64,000 nucleotides of DNA. It comes from Perna viridis (taxonomy: Eukaryota). Below, piece by piece: positions 3,001-39,000 of the stretch; the stretch's first letter is position 1; each line of letters opens with the position of its first letter. Made by a program: the position numbers. Location: contig CM074513.1 in the NCBI GenBank assembly GCA_037379345.1, positions 1,116,001-1,180,000 of the forward strand. Direction: 5' to 3'.

Positions 3001-6000
3001 AACCCCACCAAACAAACAAACAAACACAATTTTAATACGGGGACACAATTTCCCCGTCCTTTCCATTAGTCAGTAATTATACTAGTTATAGCTAAAAAGT
3101 ACCTTCTTTGAAACCACAAAACATTCCATATAAAATTAAGGTAATAATAATAGCAAAGTTGTTGTTTTGCTACATATTAACAATGCAATTGCACTTGATA
3201 ATGAGCTCGCCACCTTTAGATGGATAACAATGGTAAACCAGATGAATTGTGTATTATGTCTCTGGGTAAACAATGGCACTAATTGCAAAATATTCCACTG
3301 CATGATGGTACTGTCACGACAGAAATGGTACCAATGGTAAAATATGTTACCAATGGTACTAAATTACTGTTCACAGTTTAATGGTACCGTGTGTACCATA
3401 CTGTTCACAGTTTAGTGGTACCGTGTGTACCATACTGTTCACAGTTTAATGGTACCGTGTGTACCATACTGTTCACAGTTTAGTGGTACCGTGTGTACCA
3501 TACTGTTCACAGTTTAATGGTACCGTGTGTACCATCGGTACACTATACCAATTGCCACTTTACCATTAATACCGTTTATTTGTGATCACATCCTCTGTCT
3601 GTTAGACTAGGATCAACAGAATTTACTTGGATTCGGCATGTATGTAACATTAAAACTACATTAGCGGTCATTTTGGTAAATTTTTGTTTCTGTTGAAATA
3701 TACCTTAACTTTGAATTATTTCTACTAAACAGTAACTTTCCTGTATAACTTCATTTGATATCCACAAATATATGCATTAAATACATGGAATAGGTGTCTG
3801 TATATTTATTGTCTTGCAAGACAAAAATTCTATCTAGATAAATCTGTATGCTGTGACTTCTTGTGACCTTAATCCGCGCATGTGCTGTAAGGGTCGCCTC
3901 TTTAATAACAAATCTGATTGCAAAGCGAAAGTGGTTATTCAACGGTAAGGAAGACCGACTCCAGCAGTAAAAGAAAAAAAGTTCGAATATAACGCAAGGA
4001 TCCTTTTGAAATTTACCTATCGTGACATAATGTGGCTCAAATATGGTCATTGTTTATTTGAAAACTAATCAAGAAGTAGATGAAATGAAATGAAAACAAG
4101 ACACGTGCTTATACCTGTGTATCCCTTATTGTTATTTTTTTTTTACAAAGGTTAAAGTATTTTTAAACCTGGGATGTCCAGTCGGCGATCTTCGGTAGTA
4201 ATGGCGAAAAATAATTAGGTCAGAGCTATCGATCTTCTCTGATTTTAAAAACGTTGTTTTCACAATATTCTGTTGGTATTATCGGCATTTATTGCTTCAA
4301 TTGCATTACTACTACCTTATTGCATTGAATCAGCAAAATTCAGCAGAATCAAATGAGAACAAATTTGGCAGATAATGCAGCTTCAAACATAAGCTCTTGT
4401 TAGCATTTAACCGAACACATGATAACTTTTAAAACACGATACATGAAACAATGCGTGCAAATTCAAAACATATCAGGAAATATAGCAAAGCATCGAAATC
4501 AAAGCAAATAATGTATATTTAATGACGACGGGCGTCTGGATGCCTGAAACTCATGTATAAACTAAGGGAATTACGAATTAGTTTTGAGGGGGTCTAGGAT
4601 CAAGTTTGAAATAAAAAGGCAGGATTGAAATGTTCCAGAATTAAAAAAAAACAGGCCATGCCATAAGACATAATAAAAGGCAGGATCTATATTGTTGCCA
4701 TAATATTTTTGTTTGTTTACATTAAAAAAATGGAGAATTAAAACATCCACTGGACCTTAATGTTCTCAAAATAAAAAGACAGGGTCGAAATTTTGATCAT
4801 AACCGCCACCCCCCCCCCCCCACCCCCCCCACCCCCCCCCAAAAGAAATCAAATGGTTGCTCCCTTATGAACTTCAGACAGATCTCTTTTTGGAGGTAAA
4901 ACTTCTAAAGGGTTTTGTATAGTAGAATTTTTCATACTGGAATAAATATGGGCTTGATATAGAATTTAAGTTTACATTTAAAAAAGTAAGTACGGAAATG
5001 GGACGAATCGATTATGGACCGACTTTGTCCTACTTTCCATTTTCCATTCGTAATTGTTGTGATTTCGGATATTATACTATGACATAGATGAAAACTCTCG
5101 AATGTTTTGAAAATGTAGCAGATGTTGAATTTGAATGTGTCATTAACTCATTCATTCTAGTGATATTTCAGATTAAATGGAAGTTACATGTGGACTTCTG
5201 TCCAATCTTGTCCAAACAAAATCTATCGAACGCGTTCTTGCACCCATTGCATCTCAGGTATTATAAATTTTGCAGAAACATGCTGAAGCAAGTTAAAAAG
5301 TAGGCCCTACTCCCTAGTTTACTGCAGTACTATAAATTTTTATAGTCAAAGAGTAGTTCTCGCCTGCAGATTTTTCGTCCTTTCCTGTTAAACAAGTTCA
5401 TGCCAAAAGTCTATGAAAAAAAATGTCCAACATATTGCTGATATTTATCTCACTAAGAGTAAGAATTAGCTATTTTCACTGAGTCTGAGGTCAGAGGAAG
5501 AAAATTGTGGTGAGTAGATTGGCGAGGACAGCTTCTGTCTAGGCAAGATCTACTCTATGACCAGTAGATAATCTCGACGTTCACTAGGGAAGTTTTTATA
5601 ATTGAATGTTGTCCAATTAGAATTATGGTACTGTAGTGTACCTAGGCTTAATTAGGAGGATTTTTTTTACAGTAATAGAAGGAAGGCAGTGGCCTTAAGT
5701 ATGAGCAAAGTTCAAAGCAAAAGTGTCAGGTTCCATTTTCAACAAATAAGACTTCATGTCATTTATCTTCTTGCCAAGTTTAATTGGTCATTTTACATGT
5801 ACATCAGTAGTAAGTGGGGGACGGCAAAGGGCATAATAAAGACCCAGCAAGCATCATGATTATCTGGGTTAGACCAGAGACAGAAATGATATGTAAAATT
5901 GATAGTCCTTGTTTCTAAAATGAATGCATTTGTCCCAAATTAAAACAAAACCTTCCAAGTTAGTTTACATTTGTACATGTACTTGCAATATGAGACATGT

Positions 6001-36000: not shown

Positions 36001-39000
36001 CATGATATTTGGTTCATGTGATATGTTTTTAGATTTCAGCAAATATTTTTCCTGAAGTTTGTCCATTTCCTGAAAAGGTACAATGTGTGGTGCTTGAAAA
36101 TTGTTTTGCTATCTAGAGACAATTCACTACTTTTGTTTTTGACAGCTGTGTGTGAAGTATGCACATTACAAATTTATTCATGAGCACTGTCTGATTTTTA
36201 CCATATTATCTTATAAAATTTAACCTCCAGTCACATGTAAGTATCTCATCAATTGAGGCACATTTTTATTTTGTAGACAGATCTTACCCATGTAGTAGGG
36301 TGTAGACAGATCTTGTAGTAGGGTAAAGTTACCAGTATTTTATTTATTTTCCAAGCCCTAAAGTTAAAACTCTGCTCAGTTCTTGTGTTCAGTTAAATAA
36401 TAAAAAAAAATCATTTTCCAGTTTAATGATTTAAGACTTTATACCCCTACACATGAGTGGGTGGTATATTGGAAACCCTTTGTCCATTTGTCATTCTCTC
36501 TGTGCAAATTCTGTCTCAATCACCTTGGCTCCCAAGTGATGGGTTGATATTAAATTTAGTGTATTGCTTTATATAGATTGGGTATATGTTGTGAGTGATT
36601 TTTGGTACTGTTGGATATCAACTTCCTGTATGAATGGATGTGTGCCTAGTAAGCAAAAGTGTGCAACTTGATGTTTTGTTGGACTCAAACATCACAATAT
36701 TTACACTATTGTTCCAGTAAGGTGTAGATATATATTGTAATAAGATGTCATTAATAGTTTGGTAAATTCATACACTACCTGACAAATCCAGATTATTGTT
36801 TGGAATAAAAATAAAAACATCAGTAAAATATATCAAAAATTAACAATCAATAGGTAGTTGGGATTAACCAAAATATGATAACTTGTGCCAAAATTAACAG
36901 TAAATTTGATAAGTTTTGCTCTCATTAAGTCTTTTTCTTACTGTTGTTCAGTGTTTCCAAATTGGCAATTAACTAATGCTTTAGTTCTCAGTGCAACAAG
37001 CCAAGTAAATGTAACTCTTGAAAATAAAGAAAATTGGGAATGTTCTGTTAGTGGCATGTGGAACCTAAAGCTTTTTTTTAGCTAAAAGTAGTTACACAAT
37101 TGCGTGTAAATTAGTGATTAGAGAGTGTCCATATTGGTGTTCTGGTAGTTTTGTGTGTTATATGTTTTTTCCAGTGGGCCATTAAGTAGTGTTTTAGTAC
37201 CACTTTTACTCTGCATTTTACTGTTCAGAGACAAAAGCTGATGATGAAAATCTTGTATGTTCCCCCTTTTTTGTAAACCAATAATTGTGGCTAGAAGGGT
37301 TTCGATCTTGACTTCTTTCTGTATAAGAAATGGGGAAATGTTCATGATAAAATTAATTATGATGAATAACTGCAATTCGATTTTTTTGTATTTGTTTAAA
37401 ATAATTATCCTAATTTTCATGATAAACAAATAACAATAAAAATGGACCATTAATTTTTTTTTTTTTTTGCTAAGTAAGCATCTATATGAAAACTGAAAGC
37501 TTAAAAAATCATTTGTTACAATCATCAAACATGCACACTGAATATTAATATGGATTACCATTGTATTGACAAACATGGATTACCATTGTATTGACAAACA
37601 TGCACACTGAATATTAATACAGATTACCATTGTATTGACAAACATGCACAGTGAATACTAATACGGATTACCATTGTATTGACAAACATGGATTACCATT
37701 GTATTGATAAACATGCACACTGAATATTAATACGGATTACCATTGTATTGACAAACATGGATTACCATTGTATTGATAAACATGCATACTGAATATTAAT
37801 AGGGATTACCATTGTATTGACAAACATGGATTACCATTGTAGCGACAAACATGCACACTGAATATTAATATGGATTACCATTGTATTGACAAACATGCAC
37901 AGTGAATACTAATACGGATTACCATTGTATTGACAATTTCCATTATTTTTACATTACTATCCTTTATAGGTTAGTAAGATACTGACAGAGAATGCAGAAA
38001 ACCTGATGAAGATTGTGTTACAGACCATGAAGGCTGCTGAAGCTGTGTGTGTAAAGGTAGATTTTGATTAAAAACAATGTATTGTTCTAATCTATGAATA
38101 TTTTGTCAATCACAACTCCAATTTACAAGTGGAGGTTTAATATAGTGTTGAAATGTTGGTGGAGATCAAACATTAAGCAATGAAAAGTTAATTTAAAATC
38201 ATTTTCTTTAGATTTTGTGATTTTCTCCTTCAGCCTATGCTTTATTAAAACTATTTCTCCACTCTTTATGATAGTGTTGAGATTTTAACATCCTTGCTAA
38301 AACTTGCATGTTCAAAATCTAAGTTTAATCATCTCTTGTGGGAAAAGAAATTAAAACTATTCCTGACTTTAATAACATGCTTAAGGAAAATTTATTTTTG
38401 AAAGGTTTCTAAGAATTATATTGTAATTAAACATTTTGCTATATTTTCTGAAATTTTTAATCAAAGGGACTGAAAGCCCCAGAGGATACAACAAATCAGG
38501 ATGCAGCTAGTGCTATCGTCCTGGCAACACAGTGGCAGAGACGTCTTATACGTCAGCGGCAGAGAGAGATGGCAGATGCTGATAAAGATGACCTTGGACT
38601 CCGTAGAATAGAAGAACACAAGCCTCCTGAATTGACTCAGATTTTTAAAACCAGCTAGCTTATTGTATAAGTTCTGCATATCATGTATTTGATTTAGGGC
38701 TTTTTTTTAGTAAATCTTTTCTGTGAGGAAACAGTTTTCAAGAAGTCATGTAGAGTGTTTGCTTTCTGTTATCTTCCTACCTGTGCATTGCAAGGTTCAT
38801 TGCTACATAATTACATATTAAAATTAATATTTTTTTTTTTAAGAAACAAAAATGTTGCATTAAATTATTAGTTTATGGGCTTAGTTGTAATTGCAATTAA
38901 TAGAAATAGCTAGAATATAAAACATTTTAAAACATTATATTCTATTAAATTTTAGTATTCAGTTGCAATCACAATAATGAGAACATTGTCAGTTCATGTC

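What the first reader, a model, noticed from the sequence alone, without database searches (positions are those of the whole stretch)
5177..38658. Giant, non-canonical vinculin/alpha-catenin family member (about 1480 aa)
Seen: a phase-consistent 30-exon ORF whose N and M regions align by eye to alpha-catenin. The tail is more vinculin-like (IPTVSTQL, NAENLM..AAEA), there is no proline-rich hinge, and there is a 63-aa C-terminal extension. Established: vertebrate vinculin is about 1070 aa, alpha-catenin about 900 and alpha-catulin about 730. Inference: this is none of the three classical orthologs but a divergent, probably uncharacterised VIN paralog, possibly a junctional actin linker with an extended mechanosensitive middle region.
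Basis: partly seen in the sequence, partly recalled or inferred. Interest (0 to 1): 0.7.

Follow-up and report, generated by a model that had tools for sequence, protein, structure and literature searches.

The report
Giant vinculin-family gene of a mussel
This is a real, intact 30-exon mussel gene for a roughly 1480-residue relative of vinculin and alpha-catenin; it belongs to a little-studied fourth branch of that family, found across bilaterian animals, whose only studied members are the fly actin regulators Serendipity-alpha and Spitting image.

Summary
On the + strand, 5177..38658 carries 30 GT-AG exons, phase-consistent and without stops, coding 1478-1483 aa. They are colinear with a 1508-aa Mytilus galloprovincialis protein, at 76% identity summed exon by exon. 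The window is bivalve, not human.

Single exons hit Pfam Vinculin in profile order. Orthologues of about 1450-1700 aa occur in bivalves, gastropods, nemerteans, an annelid, a starfish, an acorn worm, amphioxus, fishes, a frog, reptiles and a wallaby.

In a careful tree, a 100/100 branch separates these "giants" from alpha-catenin, vinculin and choanoflagellate-type proteins. They group with short proteins carrying Pfam Serendipity_A. That family also hits 8 of 24 giants and 0 of 9 canonical controls.

The extra 650 aa are a disordered Ser/Thr-rich linker plus about four M-domain-like helical bundles. The tail is vinculin-like and keeps the conserved tryptophan.

So it is none of the classical three, but the clade was noted in 2013. 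Alpha-catulin could not be put in the tree. The joined spliced model was not searched or folded.

The parts
5177..5257 (+). exon 1 (ATG; N-terminal head domain)
   Evidence: 27 aa, P0001 1-27, 96% id; donor GT
6353..6487 (+). exon 2 (head domain)
   Evidence: 45 aa, P0001 28-72, 87% id
6832..6987 (+). exon 3 (head domain)
   Evidence: 52 aa, P0001 73-124, 77% id
7883..8005 (+). exon 4 (head domain)
   Evidence: P0001 125-165, 68% id; PF01044 positions 117-158, E 1.4e-4
8409..8588 (+). exon 5 (head domain)
   Evidence: P0001 166-225, 77% id; PF01044 155-217, E 6.3e-7
9292..9426 (+). exon 6 (end of head domain); a same-phase acceptor at 9262 is the alternative
   Evidence: P0001 226-270, 93% id; picked 9262
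11560..11706 (+). exon 7 (M region)
   Evidence: P0001 271-319, 88% id
12208..12281 (+). exon 8 (M region); alternative acceptor 12217
   Evidence: P0001 320-343, 71% id
12743..12899 (+). exon 9 (M region)
   Evidence: P0001 345-396, 94% id; PF01044 358-391, E 0.18
13351..13459 (+). exon 10 (M region)
   Evidence: P0001 397-430, 71% id
13815..14024 (+). exon 11 (M region; also the stretch that hits Pfam Serendipity_A)
   Evidence: P0001 434-502, 91% id; PF01044 427-497 E 6.9e-7 and PF05482 313-369 E 9e-4; query
14532..14729 (+). exon 12 (M region); alternative acceptor 14469
   Evidence: P0001 504-568, 80% id; PF01044 496-556, E 2.2e-6
15673..15858 (+). exon 13 (end of M region)
   Evidence: P0001 570-630, 67% id
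16535..16837 (+). exon 14: Ser/Thr-rich linker, predicted disordered in orthologues; alternative donor after 16738
   Evidence: P0001 632-720, 55% id; S+T 0.30, 3 Pro in 100; matching stretch of P0186 (644-749) has pLDDT<50
18389..18554 (+). exon 15 (extra helical bundles)
   Evidence: P0001 741-794, 63% id; no Pfam hit
19139..19271 (+). exon 16 (extra bundles)
   Evidence: P0001 796-839, 61% id
19559..19666 (+). exon 17 (extra bundles)
   Evidence: P0001 840-875, 72% id
19861..20035 (+). exon 18 (extra bundles)
   Evidence: P0001 877-931, 76% id
20447..20675 (+). exon 19 (extra bundles)
   Evidence: P0001 936-1010, 76% id
21159..21324 (+). exon 20 (extra bundles)
   Evidence: P0001 1012-1066, 71% id
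22226..22328 (+). exon 21 (extra bundles; start of the stretch most like the M region)
   Evidence: P0001 1067-1100, 74% id; P0001 about 1070-1204 matches M region 369-496, probability 90%
23305..23505 (+). exon 22 (extra bundles)
   Evidence: P0001 1102-1166, 89% id
24547..24672 (+). exon 23 (end of extra bundles)
   Evidence: P0001 1171-1208, 66% id
25158..25296 (+). exon 24 (hinge before the tail, predicted disordered)
   Evidence: P0001 1211-1257, 47% id; matching stretch of P0020 (705-775) has low pLDDT
25691..25784 (+). exon 25 (hinge, basic)
   Evidence: P0001 1259-1289, 74% id; 3 Pro, 7 K+R in 31
26564..26698 (+). exon 26 (first helices of the actin-binding-type tail)
   Evidence: PF01044 680-725, E 3.3e-7; alpha-catenin actin-binding domain E 1e-4, vinculin tail E 1.4e-4
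30791..30891 (+). exon 27 (tail)
   Evidence: P0001 1336-1367, 81% id; PF01044 728-760, E 0.055
35104..35206 (+). exon 28 (tail; IPTVSTQL)
   Evidence: P0001 1369-1402, 91% id; 12 of 12 PDB hits at E<=10 are vinculin-type, none alpha-catenin
37970..38056 (+). exon 29 (tail; NAENLM..AAEA)
   Evidence: P0001 1417-1445, 97% id; 21 of 22 PDB hits at E<=10 are vinculin-type
38467..38658 (+). exon 30: 63-aa C-terminal extension and stop codon
   Evidence: P0001 1446-1507, 85% id; 0 PDB hits at E<=10; its tryptophan aligns with the post-bundle Trp of alpha-catenin and vinculin; Trp and the DxLGL..P end are invariant in 13 giants

Best explanation
The locus is one intact protein-coding gene of a mytilid-like bivalve. 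It encodes a vinculin/alpha-catenin superfamily protein of about 1480 aa.

It is the orthologue of the 'uncharacterized LOC', 'catenin alpha-like' and 'vinculin-like' giants of about 1450-1700 aa found in many bilaterian phyla. That family is a branch of its own, outside alpha-catenin and outside vinculin. It groups with proteins of the Pfam Serendipity_A family, that is, the Sry-alpha/Spitting image clade of insects.

Anatomy, shown or predicted:
- a VH1-type head (exons 1-6)
- an alpha-catenin-like M region without vinculin's D2 (exons 7-13)
- a disordered Ser/Thr-rich linker (exon 14)
- about four further four-helix bundles that arose by internal repetition of M-like units (exons 15-23)
- a disordered, proline-poor hinge (exons 24-25)
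- a five-helix vinculin-type tail (exons 26-29)
- a conserved 63-aa extension (exon 30)

Inferred mechanism: the tail and its conserved tryptophan bind F-actin. The head binds a partner that is not yet known. The long rod of about seven bundles, interrupted by two flexible linkers, acts as an extensible, possibly force-sensitive spacer at the actin cortex or at junctions. Fly Sry-alpha similarly binds and stabilises cortical F-actin.
For: Gene structure: 30 GT-AG exons, consistent phases, no stops. They are colinear with P0001.

Superfamily: 8 of 29 + strand ORF pieces hit PF01044 at E<=1 (5 at E<1e-3), in profile order 117->786. The 12 pieces between 15549 and 25297 gave 0 PF01044 hits. P0001 scores 353 bits on PF01044.

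PDB comparison: vinculin 2.7e-59 and alpha-catenin 3.2e-55. The N and M regions are colinear with alpha-catenin 20-582.

Distribution: 12 of 19 candidates and 23 of 7999 scored candidates are full-length relatives. Saccoglossus aligns over P0001 1-1194, insertion included. Of 30 representatives looked up, 29 carry a name, and they span many phyla.

Tree of 40 rows x 888 columns: alpha-catenin 100/100, vinculin 100/100. The branch (alpha-catenin + vinculin + choanoflagellate-type) against (giants + short divergent relatives) has 100/100 support. The 53-row quick tree gives the same split, except that one unnamed long-branch row (D_unn1213) falls on the canonical side.

Serendipity link:
- PF05482 at or above its cut-off of 35 bits: P0001 37.8 and P0002 46.7; short relatives 46.5, 47.5 and 59.8.
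- 8 of 24 giants hit it at E<=1, best 2.1e-16; 0 of 9 canonical controls do.
- Atlas features place the horseshoe-crab relative with Sry-alpha clusters, 0.94 (a lead only).

Insertion:
- hhalign finds M-like similarity (probability 90%, E 1.7e-6) and internal repeats about 112 aa apart.
- AlphaFold models of two orthologues are all-helical with pLDDT mostly 80-94 in that region, and show two low-confidence linkers.
- Atlas features of the insertion alone point to Vinculin-family clusters, 0.91.

Tail.

Function of relatives: Sry-alpha and Spt bind F-actin directly (Zheng 2013, PMC3820746, passages). Sry-alpha raises cortical F-actin and promotes spot adherens junctions (bioRxiv 10.1101/2025.07.29.667534, passages).
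Against: - The window's own protein was never searched or placed in a tree as a whole. The tree uses the Mytilus orthologue P0001 as a stand-in.
- No window exon alone reaches a Pfam gathering score. The best is 29.5 bits for PF01044, and exon 11 gives 18.5 bits for PF05482.
- PF05482 is missed by 16 of 24 giants and by 3 of the 6 short relatives that join the giants in the 53-row tree (a seventh divergent row, P0084, which falls on the canonical side there, also lacks it).
- The short relatives sit on long branches. Their place differs between runs: sister to the giants or inside the protostome giants with 58/66 support. The giants alone are one side of a branch in only 25% of 200 bootstrap trees.
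- No bona fide Drosophila Sry-alpha or Spt and no named alpha-catulin was in the tree.
- 17 of the 40 tree rows are unnamed cluster representatives.
- There is no transcript evidence for this window.
- Actin binding, partner binding and force sensing are all inferred.
Confidence: 0.7

Rival explanations
1. It is the bivalve orthologue of alpha-catulin (CTNNAL1) in a long form.
For: Alpha-catulin is the one classical branch that could not be placed in the trees. Both it and the giants are alpha-catenin-like at the N terminus. The short divergent relatives of 670-870 aa with no detectable tail have alpha-catulin-like lengths.
Against: Alpha-catulin is 734 aa and lacks a 110-aa stretch of alpha-catenin after about residue 504 (review PMC9569426, passages). 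The giant orthologue aligns with alpha-catenin through residue 582 and then adds about 650 aa. Zheng 2013 reports Sry-alpha/Spt, together with fish and frog uncharacterised proteins, as a clade distinct from alpha-catulin. Vertebrates with a giant (turtle, bowfin, wallaby, frog) list it as 'uncharacterized LOC' rather than as alpha-catulin. The short relatives carry Pfam Serendipity_A.
Confidence: 0.1
2. The 30 exons belong to two neighbouring genes (a head+M gene and a bundles+tail gene) that only look like one open frame.
For: No transcript data were available for this window. The Ser/Thr-rich exon 14 and the hinge exons are the least conserved (55% and 47% identity).
Against: Phases stay consistent across all 29 junctions with no stop. 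Independent annotations in more than 20 species give one protein of about 1500 aa with the same order of parts. Alignment to the Saccoglossus and Tubulanus proteins runs through the linker and the insertion. Shorter isoforms listed for amphioxus and turtle are still 1282-1356 aa; the 1356-aa turtle isoform tested keeps both head/M and tail, the 1282-aa amphioxus isoform aligns only up to P0001 residue 1212, with no tail match.
Confidence: 0.05
3. It is a bivalve-specific, fast-evolving duplicate of canonical alpha-catenin that acquired an insertion.
For: Database names such as 'catenin alpha-2-like' and 'alpha-catenin-like protein hmp-1'. The N and M regions are colinear with alpha-catenin.
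Against: Full-length relatives occur in deuterostomes and other protostome phyla and share the insertion. The alpha-catenin clade excludes them at 100/100. The tail motifs are vinculin-like, not alpha-catenin-like.
Confidence: 0.02

Closest known systems
Drosophila Serendipity-alpha and Spitting image (CG8247); Pfam PF05482
   Same: They are on the same side of the 100/100 branch as PF05482-bearing proteins. PF05482 hits the M region of giants but not of canonical members. Sry-alpha/Spt are described as a separate clade of the superfamily that binds F-actin and includes uncharacterised fish and frog proteins (PMC3820746).
   Different: By that paper, Sry-alpha and Spt align only with the middle (VH2) sequences. 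Atlas clusters named Sry-alpha are 530-1116 aa. The mussel protein is about 1480 aa, with a full head, about four extra bundles and a vinculin-type tail. No fly sequence was compared directly here.
alpha-catenin
   Same: The head and M region are colinear, with no D2 (P0001 12-569 against alpha-catenin 20-582). The predicted head has TM 0.92 to the alpha-catenin N domain 4p9t. There is a post-bundle extension with a conserved Trp.
   Different: It is a separate clade. It has about 650 extra residues between M3 and the tail. The tail helices carry vinculin-type motifs.
vinculin
   Same: The tail motifs IPT(V/I)STQL and NA(E/Q)NLM...AEA match. The best overall PDB and Foldseek matches are full-length vinculin.
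   Different: There is no D2 domain: the PDB alignment comes in three stretches that skip vinculin residues about 250-495. There is no proline-rich hinge. It is a separate clade.
alpha-catulin (CTNNAL1)
   Same: It is an alpha-catenin-like member of the same superfamily with a poorly understood role (PMC9569426).
   Different: It is 734 aa with a 110-aa omission relative to alpha-catenin. The giant keeps that stretch and is twice as long. Their relationship was not tested by a tree here.
'Uncharacterized alpha-catenin-like proteins' of Miller et al. 2013
   Same: A conserved metazoan group inside the alpha-catenin/vinculin superfamily with no known function, as cited by PMC4948710 and PMC13245172.
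   Different: I could not read Miller et al. 2013 (not held), so I cannot say whether that group is this family.

Membership tests
Vinculin/alpha-catenin superfamily (Pfam PF01044) | Significant, colinear match to the family profile over head, M region and tail | tested here: met
   Exon by exon, 8 of 29 ORF pieces hit at E<=1, in profile order 117->786. None alone reaches the 38.1-bit cut-off; the best is 29.5 bits. The orthologue P0001 scores 352.8 bits.
Vinculin/alpha-catenin superfamily (Pfam PF01044) | VH1-type head fold and a five-helix tail | tested here: met
   This rests on predicted structures of orthologues only. The head has TM 0.92 to 4p9t, and tail-only vinculin chains match at TM 0.66. 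Window exons 26, 28 and 29 hit tail chains.
alpha-catenin | Falls inside the alpha-catenin clade | tested here: not met
   The alpha-catenin clade has 100/100 support and excludes the giants. P0001 stands in for the window's gene.
alpha-catenin | M3 followed directly by a short linker and the actin-binding domain (about 900 aa in all) | tested here: not met
   About 650 residues (exons 14-25) lie between M3 and the tail.
alpha-catenin | Binds beta-catenin through the head | not testable with these tools
   No binding prediction was run, because no claim of binding is made.
vinculin | Duplicated head domain D2 | tested here: not met
   P0001 aligns to vinculin 5-250 and 495-840 with nothing for D2, and is colinear with alpha-catenin.
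vinculin | Proline-rich hinge before the tail | tested here: not met
   There are 5 Pro in the 76 residues of exons 24-25.
vinculin | Falls inside the vinculin clade | tested here: not met
   The vinculin clade has 100/100 support and excludes the giants.
alpha-catulin | Falls inside the alpha-catulin clade | not tested
   No named alpha-catulin sequence could be obtained. One unnamed 734-aa representative (P0169) was left unused.
alpha-catulin | About 734 aa, with a 110-aa omission relative to alpha-catenin after about residue 504 (PMC9569426) | tested here: not met
   The orthologue aligns to alpha-catenin through residue 582. Window exon 12 covers PF01044 positions 496-556. The length is about 1480 aa.
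Serendipity-alpha/Spt clade (Pfam PF05482) | Match to PF05482 at or above its 35-bit cut-off | tested here: inconclusive
   Window exon 11 alone gives 18.5 bits, E 9e-4. Orthologues give 37.8 and 46.7 bits. 8 of 24 giants hit at E<=1, against 0 of 9 canonical controls. The joined window protein was not scanned.
Serendipity-alpha/Spt clade (Pfam PF05482) | Groups with PF05482-bearing proteins to the exclusion of alpha-catenin and vinculin | tested here: met
   A 100/100 branch supports this. However, the PF05482-bearing rows are unnamed and long-branched, and no Drosophila sequence was included.
Serendipity-alpha/Spt clade (Pfam PF05482) | Direct F-actin binding | not testable with these tools
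   This is reported for the fly proteins (PMC3820746). For the mussel protein it is only inferred from the conserved tail.

The most novel reading that the evidence does not exclude
The mussel gene shows the ancestral, full-length form of a fourth pan-bilaterian branch of the vinculin family. It has a head, M region, four internally duplicated extra bundles, a vinculin-type actin-binding tail and a family-specific C-terminal peptide. The insect cellularisation proteins Sry-alpha and Spt would be shortened derivatives of this form. The branch is kept in fishes, amphibians, reptiles and a marsupial. It would then mark a third, unstudied actin-linker system beside the cadherin-catenin and integrin-talin-vinculin systems, with a rod long enough to act as a multi-step force sensor.
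Probability: 0.45. Interest if true: 0.65.

Novelty: new member of a known kind. Interest (0 to 1): 0.5.

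Why it matters
Vinculin and alpha-catenin are the textbook force-sensitive links between adhesion receptors and actin. A further family member is conserved from molluscs to a marsupial and keeps both a binding head and an actin-binding-type tail. It carries about twice as many rod bundles and has no known partner.

That points to an unstudied actin-linker. It also gives an evolutionary context for fly Sry-alpha and Spt, which have so far been treated as insect cellularisation factors.

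Public names for these proteins are inconsistent: 'CTNNA1', 'catenin alpha-2-like', 'vinculin-like', 'Vinculin', 'hmp-1'. A clear family assignment would improve annotation.

Tried and rejected
- My first splice-chain scripts failed because three tblastn matches ran past exon ends into stops. Reading those stretches showed the stops lie in introns. The corrected run is.
- The ORF at 31219..31419 looked coding by eye, but had no Pfam hit and no match to P0001. It was dropped.
- The word-based search with the horseshoe-crab relative P0197 returned only 3 horseshoe-crab-type proteins of 8000 candidates, so it gave no names for the short divergent group.
- Exon 30 alone found nothing in the PDB (0 hits at E<=10).
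- The word-based search with P0001 found no canonical alpha-catenin or vinculin. Those came only from the exhaustive search.
- 'catenin alpha-2 [Polymixia lowei]' (P0051) and the Acanthaster 966-aa protein (P0080) were first taken as canonical anchors. Their scores showed they are partial giants, and they were left out of the trees.
- A 14-aa stretch of P0001 (1403-1416) has no significant counterpart in intron 28 (best E 0.53) and is absent from the other 12 giants aligned, of which 11 are wholly gapped there and P0006 has a different short insert.
- Papers not held: Miller et al. 2013 (PMC4118598) and Miller et al. 2018.
- No complex prediction was run.

Full report
**What the window is.** The window is 64,000 bases with no N. 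GC is 0.32 and CpG observed/expected is 0.28. It holds several intronic minisatellites. The best protein matches of its exons are bivalve proteins. Exon 11 is 91% identical to a Mytilus galloprovincialis protein and 62-81% identical to oyster, scallop and pearl-oyster proteins. I therefore take it for a mytilid-like bivalve and not for human.

The joined coding sequence or protein of the window was never built, searched, scanned or folded. Whole-protein analyses use database orthologues, chiefly P0001 (M. galloprovincialis LOC143072834 isoform X1, 1508 aa), as stand-ins.

**The observation.** tblastn of P0001 against the window gave 30 + strand matches with E<1, colinear over residues 1-1507 and spanning 5177..38652. 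Three matches ran past exon ends into stops that lie in introns.

A splice-site and phase search restricted to those 30 places found one consistent chain of 30 exons. All 29 introns are GT-AG, there is no in-frame stop and no split codon is a stop. It totals 4437 nt = 1478 aa. At four places a second site in the same phase fits the orthologues better: exon 6 start 9292, exon 8 start 12208, exon 12 start 14532, exon 14 end 16837. With these the model is 4452 nt = 1483 aa.

Each exon alone matches P0001 (E 4e-8 to 8e-43). Summed over the 30 alignments, 1117 of 1462 columns are identical, 76.4%.

**Family, exon by exon.** I scanned 29 + strand ORF pieces against Pfam.
- 8 hit PF01044 (Vinculin family) at E<=1, 5 of them at E<1e-3.
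- The hits run in profile order: 117-158, 155-217, 358-391, 427-497, 496-556, 680-725, 728-760, 761-786.
- The 12 pieces between 15549 and 25297 gave no PF01044 hit.
- No single exon reaches the 38.1-bit cut-off; the best is 29.5 bits.

P0001 scores 352.8 bits on PF01044. Against solved structures P0001 matches vinculin (2.7e-59) and alpha-catenin (3.2e-55) about equally. Its residues 12-569 are colinear with alpha-catenin 20-582. Against vinculin the match comes in three stretches that skip the D2 domain. Residues of about 620-1285 match nothing.

**Relatives.** Full-length relatives of about 1450-1700 aa were found in:
- all bivalve groups sampled, Haliotis, two nemerteans, Saccoglossus and a lizard (23 proteins at E<=0.001 among 7999 scored candidates);
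- by the exhaustive search with the Tegillarca protein P0007 (456 hits at E<=0.001, 43 at E<=1e-30, best 150 listed) and three name look-ups (30 representatives, 29 with a name): Mactra, Biomphalaria, Owenia, Asterias, Branchiostoma, Amia, Brienomyrus, Pelobates, Pelodiscus and the wallaby Notamacropus. Shorter, probably partial, models were found in shark, coelacanth, gar and others.

The Saccoglossus protein aligns with P0001 over residues 1-1194, insertion included, and the pteriomorph bivalve proteins align end to end at 43-49% identity. Names given by the sources are inconsistent: 'uncharacterized', 'CTNNA1', 'catenin alpha-2-like', 'vinculin-like', 'Vinculin', 'hmp-1'.

**Trees.** A quick tree used 53 rows x 838 columns and a careful tree used 40 rows x 888 columns (begun).

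The careful tree held 18 named giants, 3 short divergent relatives, 7 alpha-catenins, 7 vinculins and 5 choanoflagellate-type proteins. 17 of the 40 rows are unnamed cluster representatives. I used them only after a screen showing at most 49% identity to the named fish vinculin and shark alpha-catenin-3-like proteins.

Rows left out:
- all proteins under 600 aa;
- P0169, an unnamed 734-aa representative that could be a human-length alpha-catulin, which I did not read or use;
- P0051 and P0080, which one search showed to be partial giants;
- the remaining representatives, to keep the run feasible.

Result:
- Alpha-catenin has 100/100 support and vinculin 100/100.
- One 100/100 branch puts alpha-catenin, vinculin and choanoflagellate-type proteins on one side, and giants plus the short divergent relatives on the other.
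- Inside the giant side, the order roughly follows the animal tree.
- The short relatives are long-branched. Their place is unstable: sister to all giants, and inside the protostome giants at 58/66.
- The giants alone form one side of a branch in 25% of 200 bootstrap trees.

The root is not known. With choanoflagellate proteins as outgroup, the giants would be sister to alpha-catenin.

**The Serendipity link.**
- Pfam PF05482 (Serendipity locus alpha protein) hits P0001 at 37.8 bits and P0002 at 46.7 bits, above its cut-off of 35. P0012 scores 34.4.
- Window exon 11 alone gives 18.5 bits (E 9e-4).
- Three of the six short relatives that group with the giants in the 53-row tree carry it, at 46.5, 47.5 and 59.8 bits.
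- 8 of 24 giants hit it at E<=1, best 2.1e-16. 0 of 9 canonical alpha-catenin, vinculin and choanoflagellate-type controls do.
- The Atlas places the horseshoe-crab relative P0197 next to clusters named Sry-alpha (0.94, 218 shared features; a lead only).

Zheng et al. [quoted passage not shown] They report that both bind F-actin directly. The legend of their Fig. S2 says uncharacterised zebrafish and Xenopus proteins group in that clade. I could not open the supplementary figures and table.

Clarke et al. 2016 (PMC4948710, passage) and a 2026 ctenophore paper (PMC13245172, passages) cite Miller et al. [quoted passage not shown] That chapter and Miller et al. 2018 are not held, so I cannot say whether it is the same group.

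Searches for later work on the non-insect members found none.

**The extra 650 residues.** I compared slices of an alignment of 13 giants by profile against profile.
- Insertion positions 440-574 (P0001 about 1070-1204) match the M region 369-496, with probability 90% and E 1.7e-6.
- The insertion matches itself at an offset of about 112 residues, with probability 82%.

AlphaFold models of two database orthologues, each with a 24-row alignment, agree.
- Solemya P0020 (983 aa, mean pLDDT 78.5) is all-helical from its residue 314 to 700, the counterpart of P0001 about 827-1213. A low-confidence stretch follows at 705-775, then a helical tail.
- Biomphalaria P0186 (1136 aa, mean pLDDT 79.0) has the head and M helices, a low-confidence stretch at 644-749, and then helices of 16-48 residues with pLDDT mostly 85-94 that fall into groups of about 110-125 residues.

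Its head matches the alpha-catenin N domain at TM 0.92. Atlas features of the insertion alone point to Vinculin-family clusters (0.91).

Read onto the window:
- exon 14 is the Ser/Thr-rich linker (S+T 0.30, 3 Pro in 100);
- exons 15-23 are about four extra bundles;
- exons 24-25 are a proline-poor hinge (5 Pro in 76).

The bundle count is an estimate. I could not inspect coordinates.

**The tail.**
- Exon 26 alone hits the actin-binding domain of alpha-catenin (E 1e-4) and the vinculin tail (E 1.4e-4).
- Exon 28 gives 12 hits at E<=10, all vinculin-type.
- Exon 29 gives 22 hits, 21 of them vinculin-type and none alpha-catenin. These E-values are weak (0.03-1.4) because the exons are short.
- In an alignment of tails, the giants share IPT.STQL and NA.NLM...AEA with vinculin and the choanoflagellate protein. 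Alpha-catenins differ there.
- The tryptophan early in exon 30 aligns with the post-bundle tryptophan of alpha-catenin and vinculin and is invariant in 13 giants.
- From recall, not from a call: that residue takes part in F-actin binding in both proteins.
- The rest of exon 30 is specific to the giants and conserved (D.LGLRR...PP.LT.IF). Exon 30 on its own has no PDB match.

**How it most likely works.**
- Shown: one intact gene, its membership of the superfamily, a branch apart from alpha-catenin and vinculin, and wide conservation of the whole architecture.
- Predicted: a head, seven or so four-helix bundles in two blocks separated by a flexible linker, a second flexible hinge, and a five-helix tail with a conserved extension.
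- Inferred: the tail binds F-actin and the head binds an unknown partner. The long rod works as an extensible, possibly force-sensitive spacer at the actin cortex or at junctions. This is in line with fly Sry-alpha, which stabilises cortical F-actin and promotes spot adherens junctions (PMC3820746; bioRxiv 10.1101/2025.07.29.667534, passages).

**What stays open.**
- Alpha-catulin was not in any tree. The case against it rests on features: 734 aa and a 110-aa omission after about residue 504 (review PMC9569426, passages), while the giant aligns with alpha-catenin through residue 582. It also rests on the published cladogram.
- No fly Sry-alpha or Spt sequence was compared directly.
- No transcript evidence exists here for the window.
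- Whether placental mammals lack the family was not examined.

**Verdict.** But the gene is an ordinary orthologue of a conserved, already noticed and annotated family that is almost unstudied. It is best filed with the Sry-alpha/Spt clade.

Noticed in passing
window 27552..28826, minus strand (inside intron 26 of the gene): An uninterrupted 424-aa open frame with an Exostosin GT47 glycosyltransferase domain (Pfam PF03016, E 1.9e-40). It appears to be an intronless gene, or a large exon, nested antisense in the 4.1-kb intron.
   Followed up: partly
window 46479..57175, minus strand: Exons of a neuralized-like E3 ligase: Neuralized (NHR) domain pieces at 56645..57175 (E 3e-28) and 53184..53426 (E 2e-8), and a C3HC4 RING finger at 46479..46976 (E 5e-15).
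   Followed up: partly
window 9626..11233, 17200..18095, 22914..23186, 23740..24108, 37526..37936: Intronic minisatellites with units of 45, 60, 27, 36 and 44-182 bases. They create long spurious open frames, for example 505 aa at 9860..11377 and 311 aa at 17192..18127.
   Followed up: no
P0001 residues 1403-1416 against window intron 28 (35207..37969): The Mytilus galloprovincialis isoform X1 has 14 extra residues between the tail helices coded by exons 28 and 29. The window model lacks them; of the 12 other giants aligned, 11 are wholly gapped there and P0006 has a different short insert. Intron 28 has no significant counterpart (best E 0.53). It may be an isoform-specific or mispredicted segment.
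   Followed up: partly
database relatives: Public names for members of this family conflict: 'CTNNA1' (amphioxus), 'catenin alpha-2' (Polymixia, a partial giant), 'vinculin-like', 'Vinculin', 'alpha-catenin-like protein hmp-1'. Many vertebrate models of 650-1100 aa look like partial predictions of the giant.
   Followed up: partly
Atlas hits: The nearest cluster to the insertion region is a 1447-aa 'Vinculin family domain-containing protein' cluster that is commonest in arthropods. Some arthropods may therefore keep a long form beside the short Sry-alpha/Spt type.
   Followed up: no
whole window: There is strong CpG depletion (observed/expected 0.28) at GC 0.32. This suggests heavy germline methylation of the region.
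   Followed up: no
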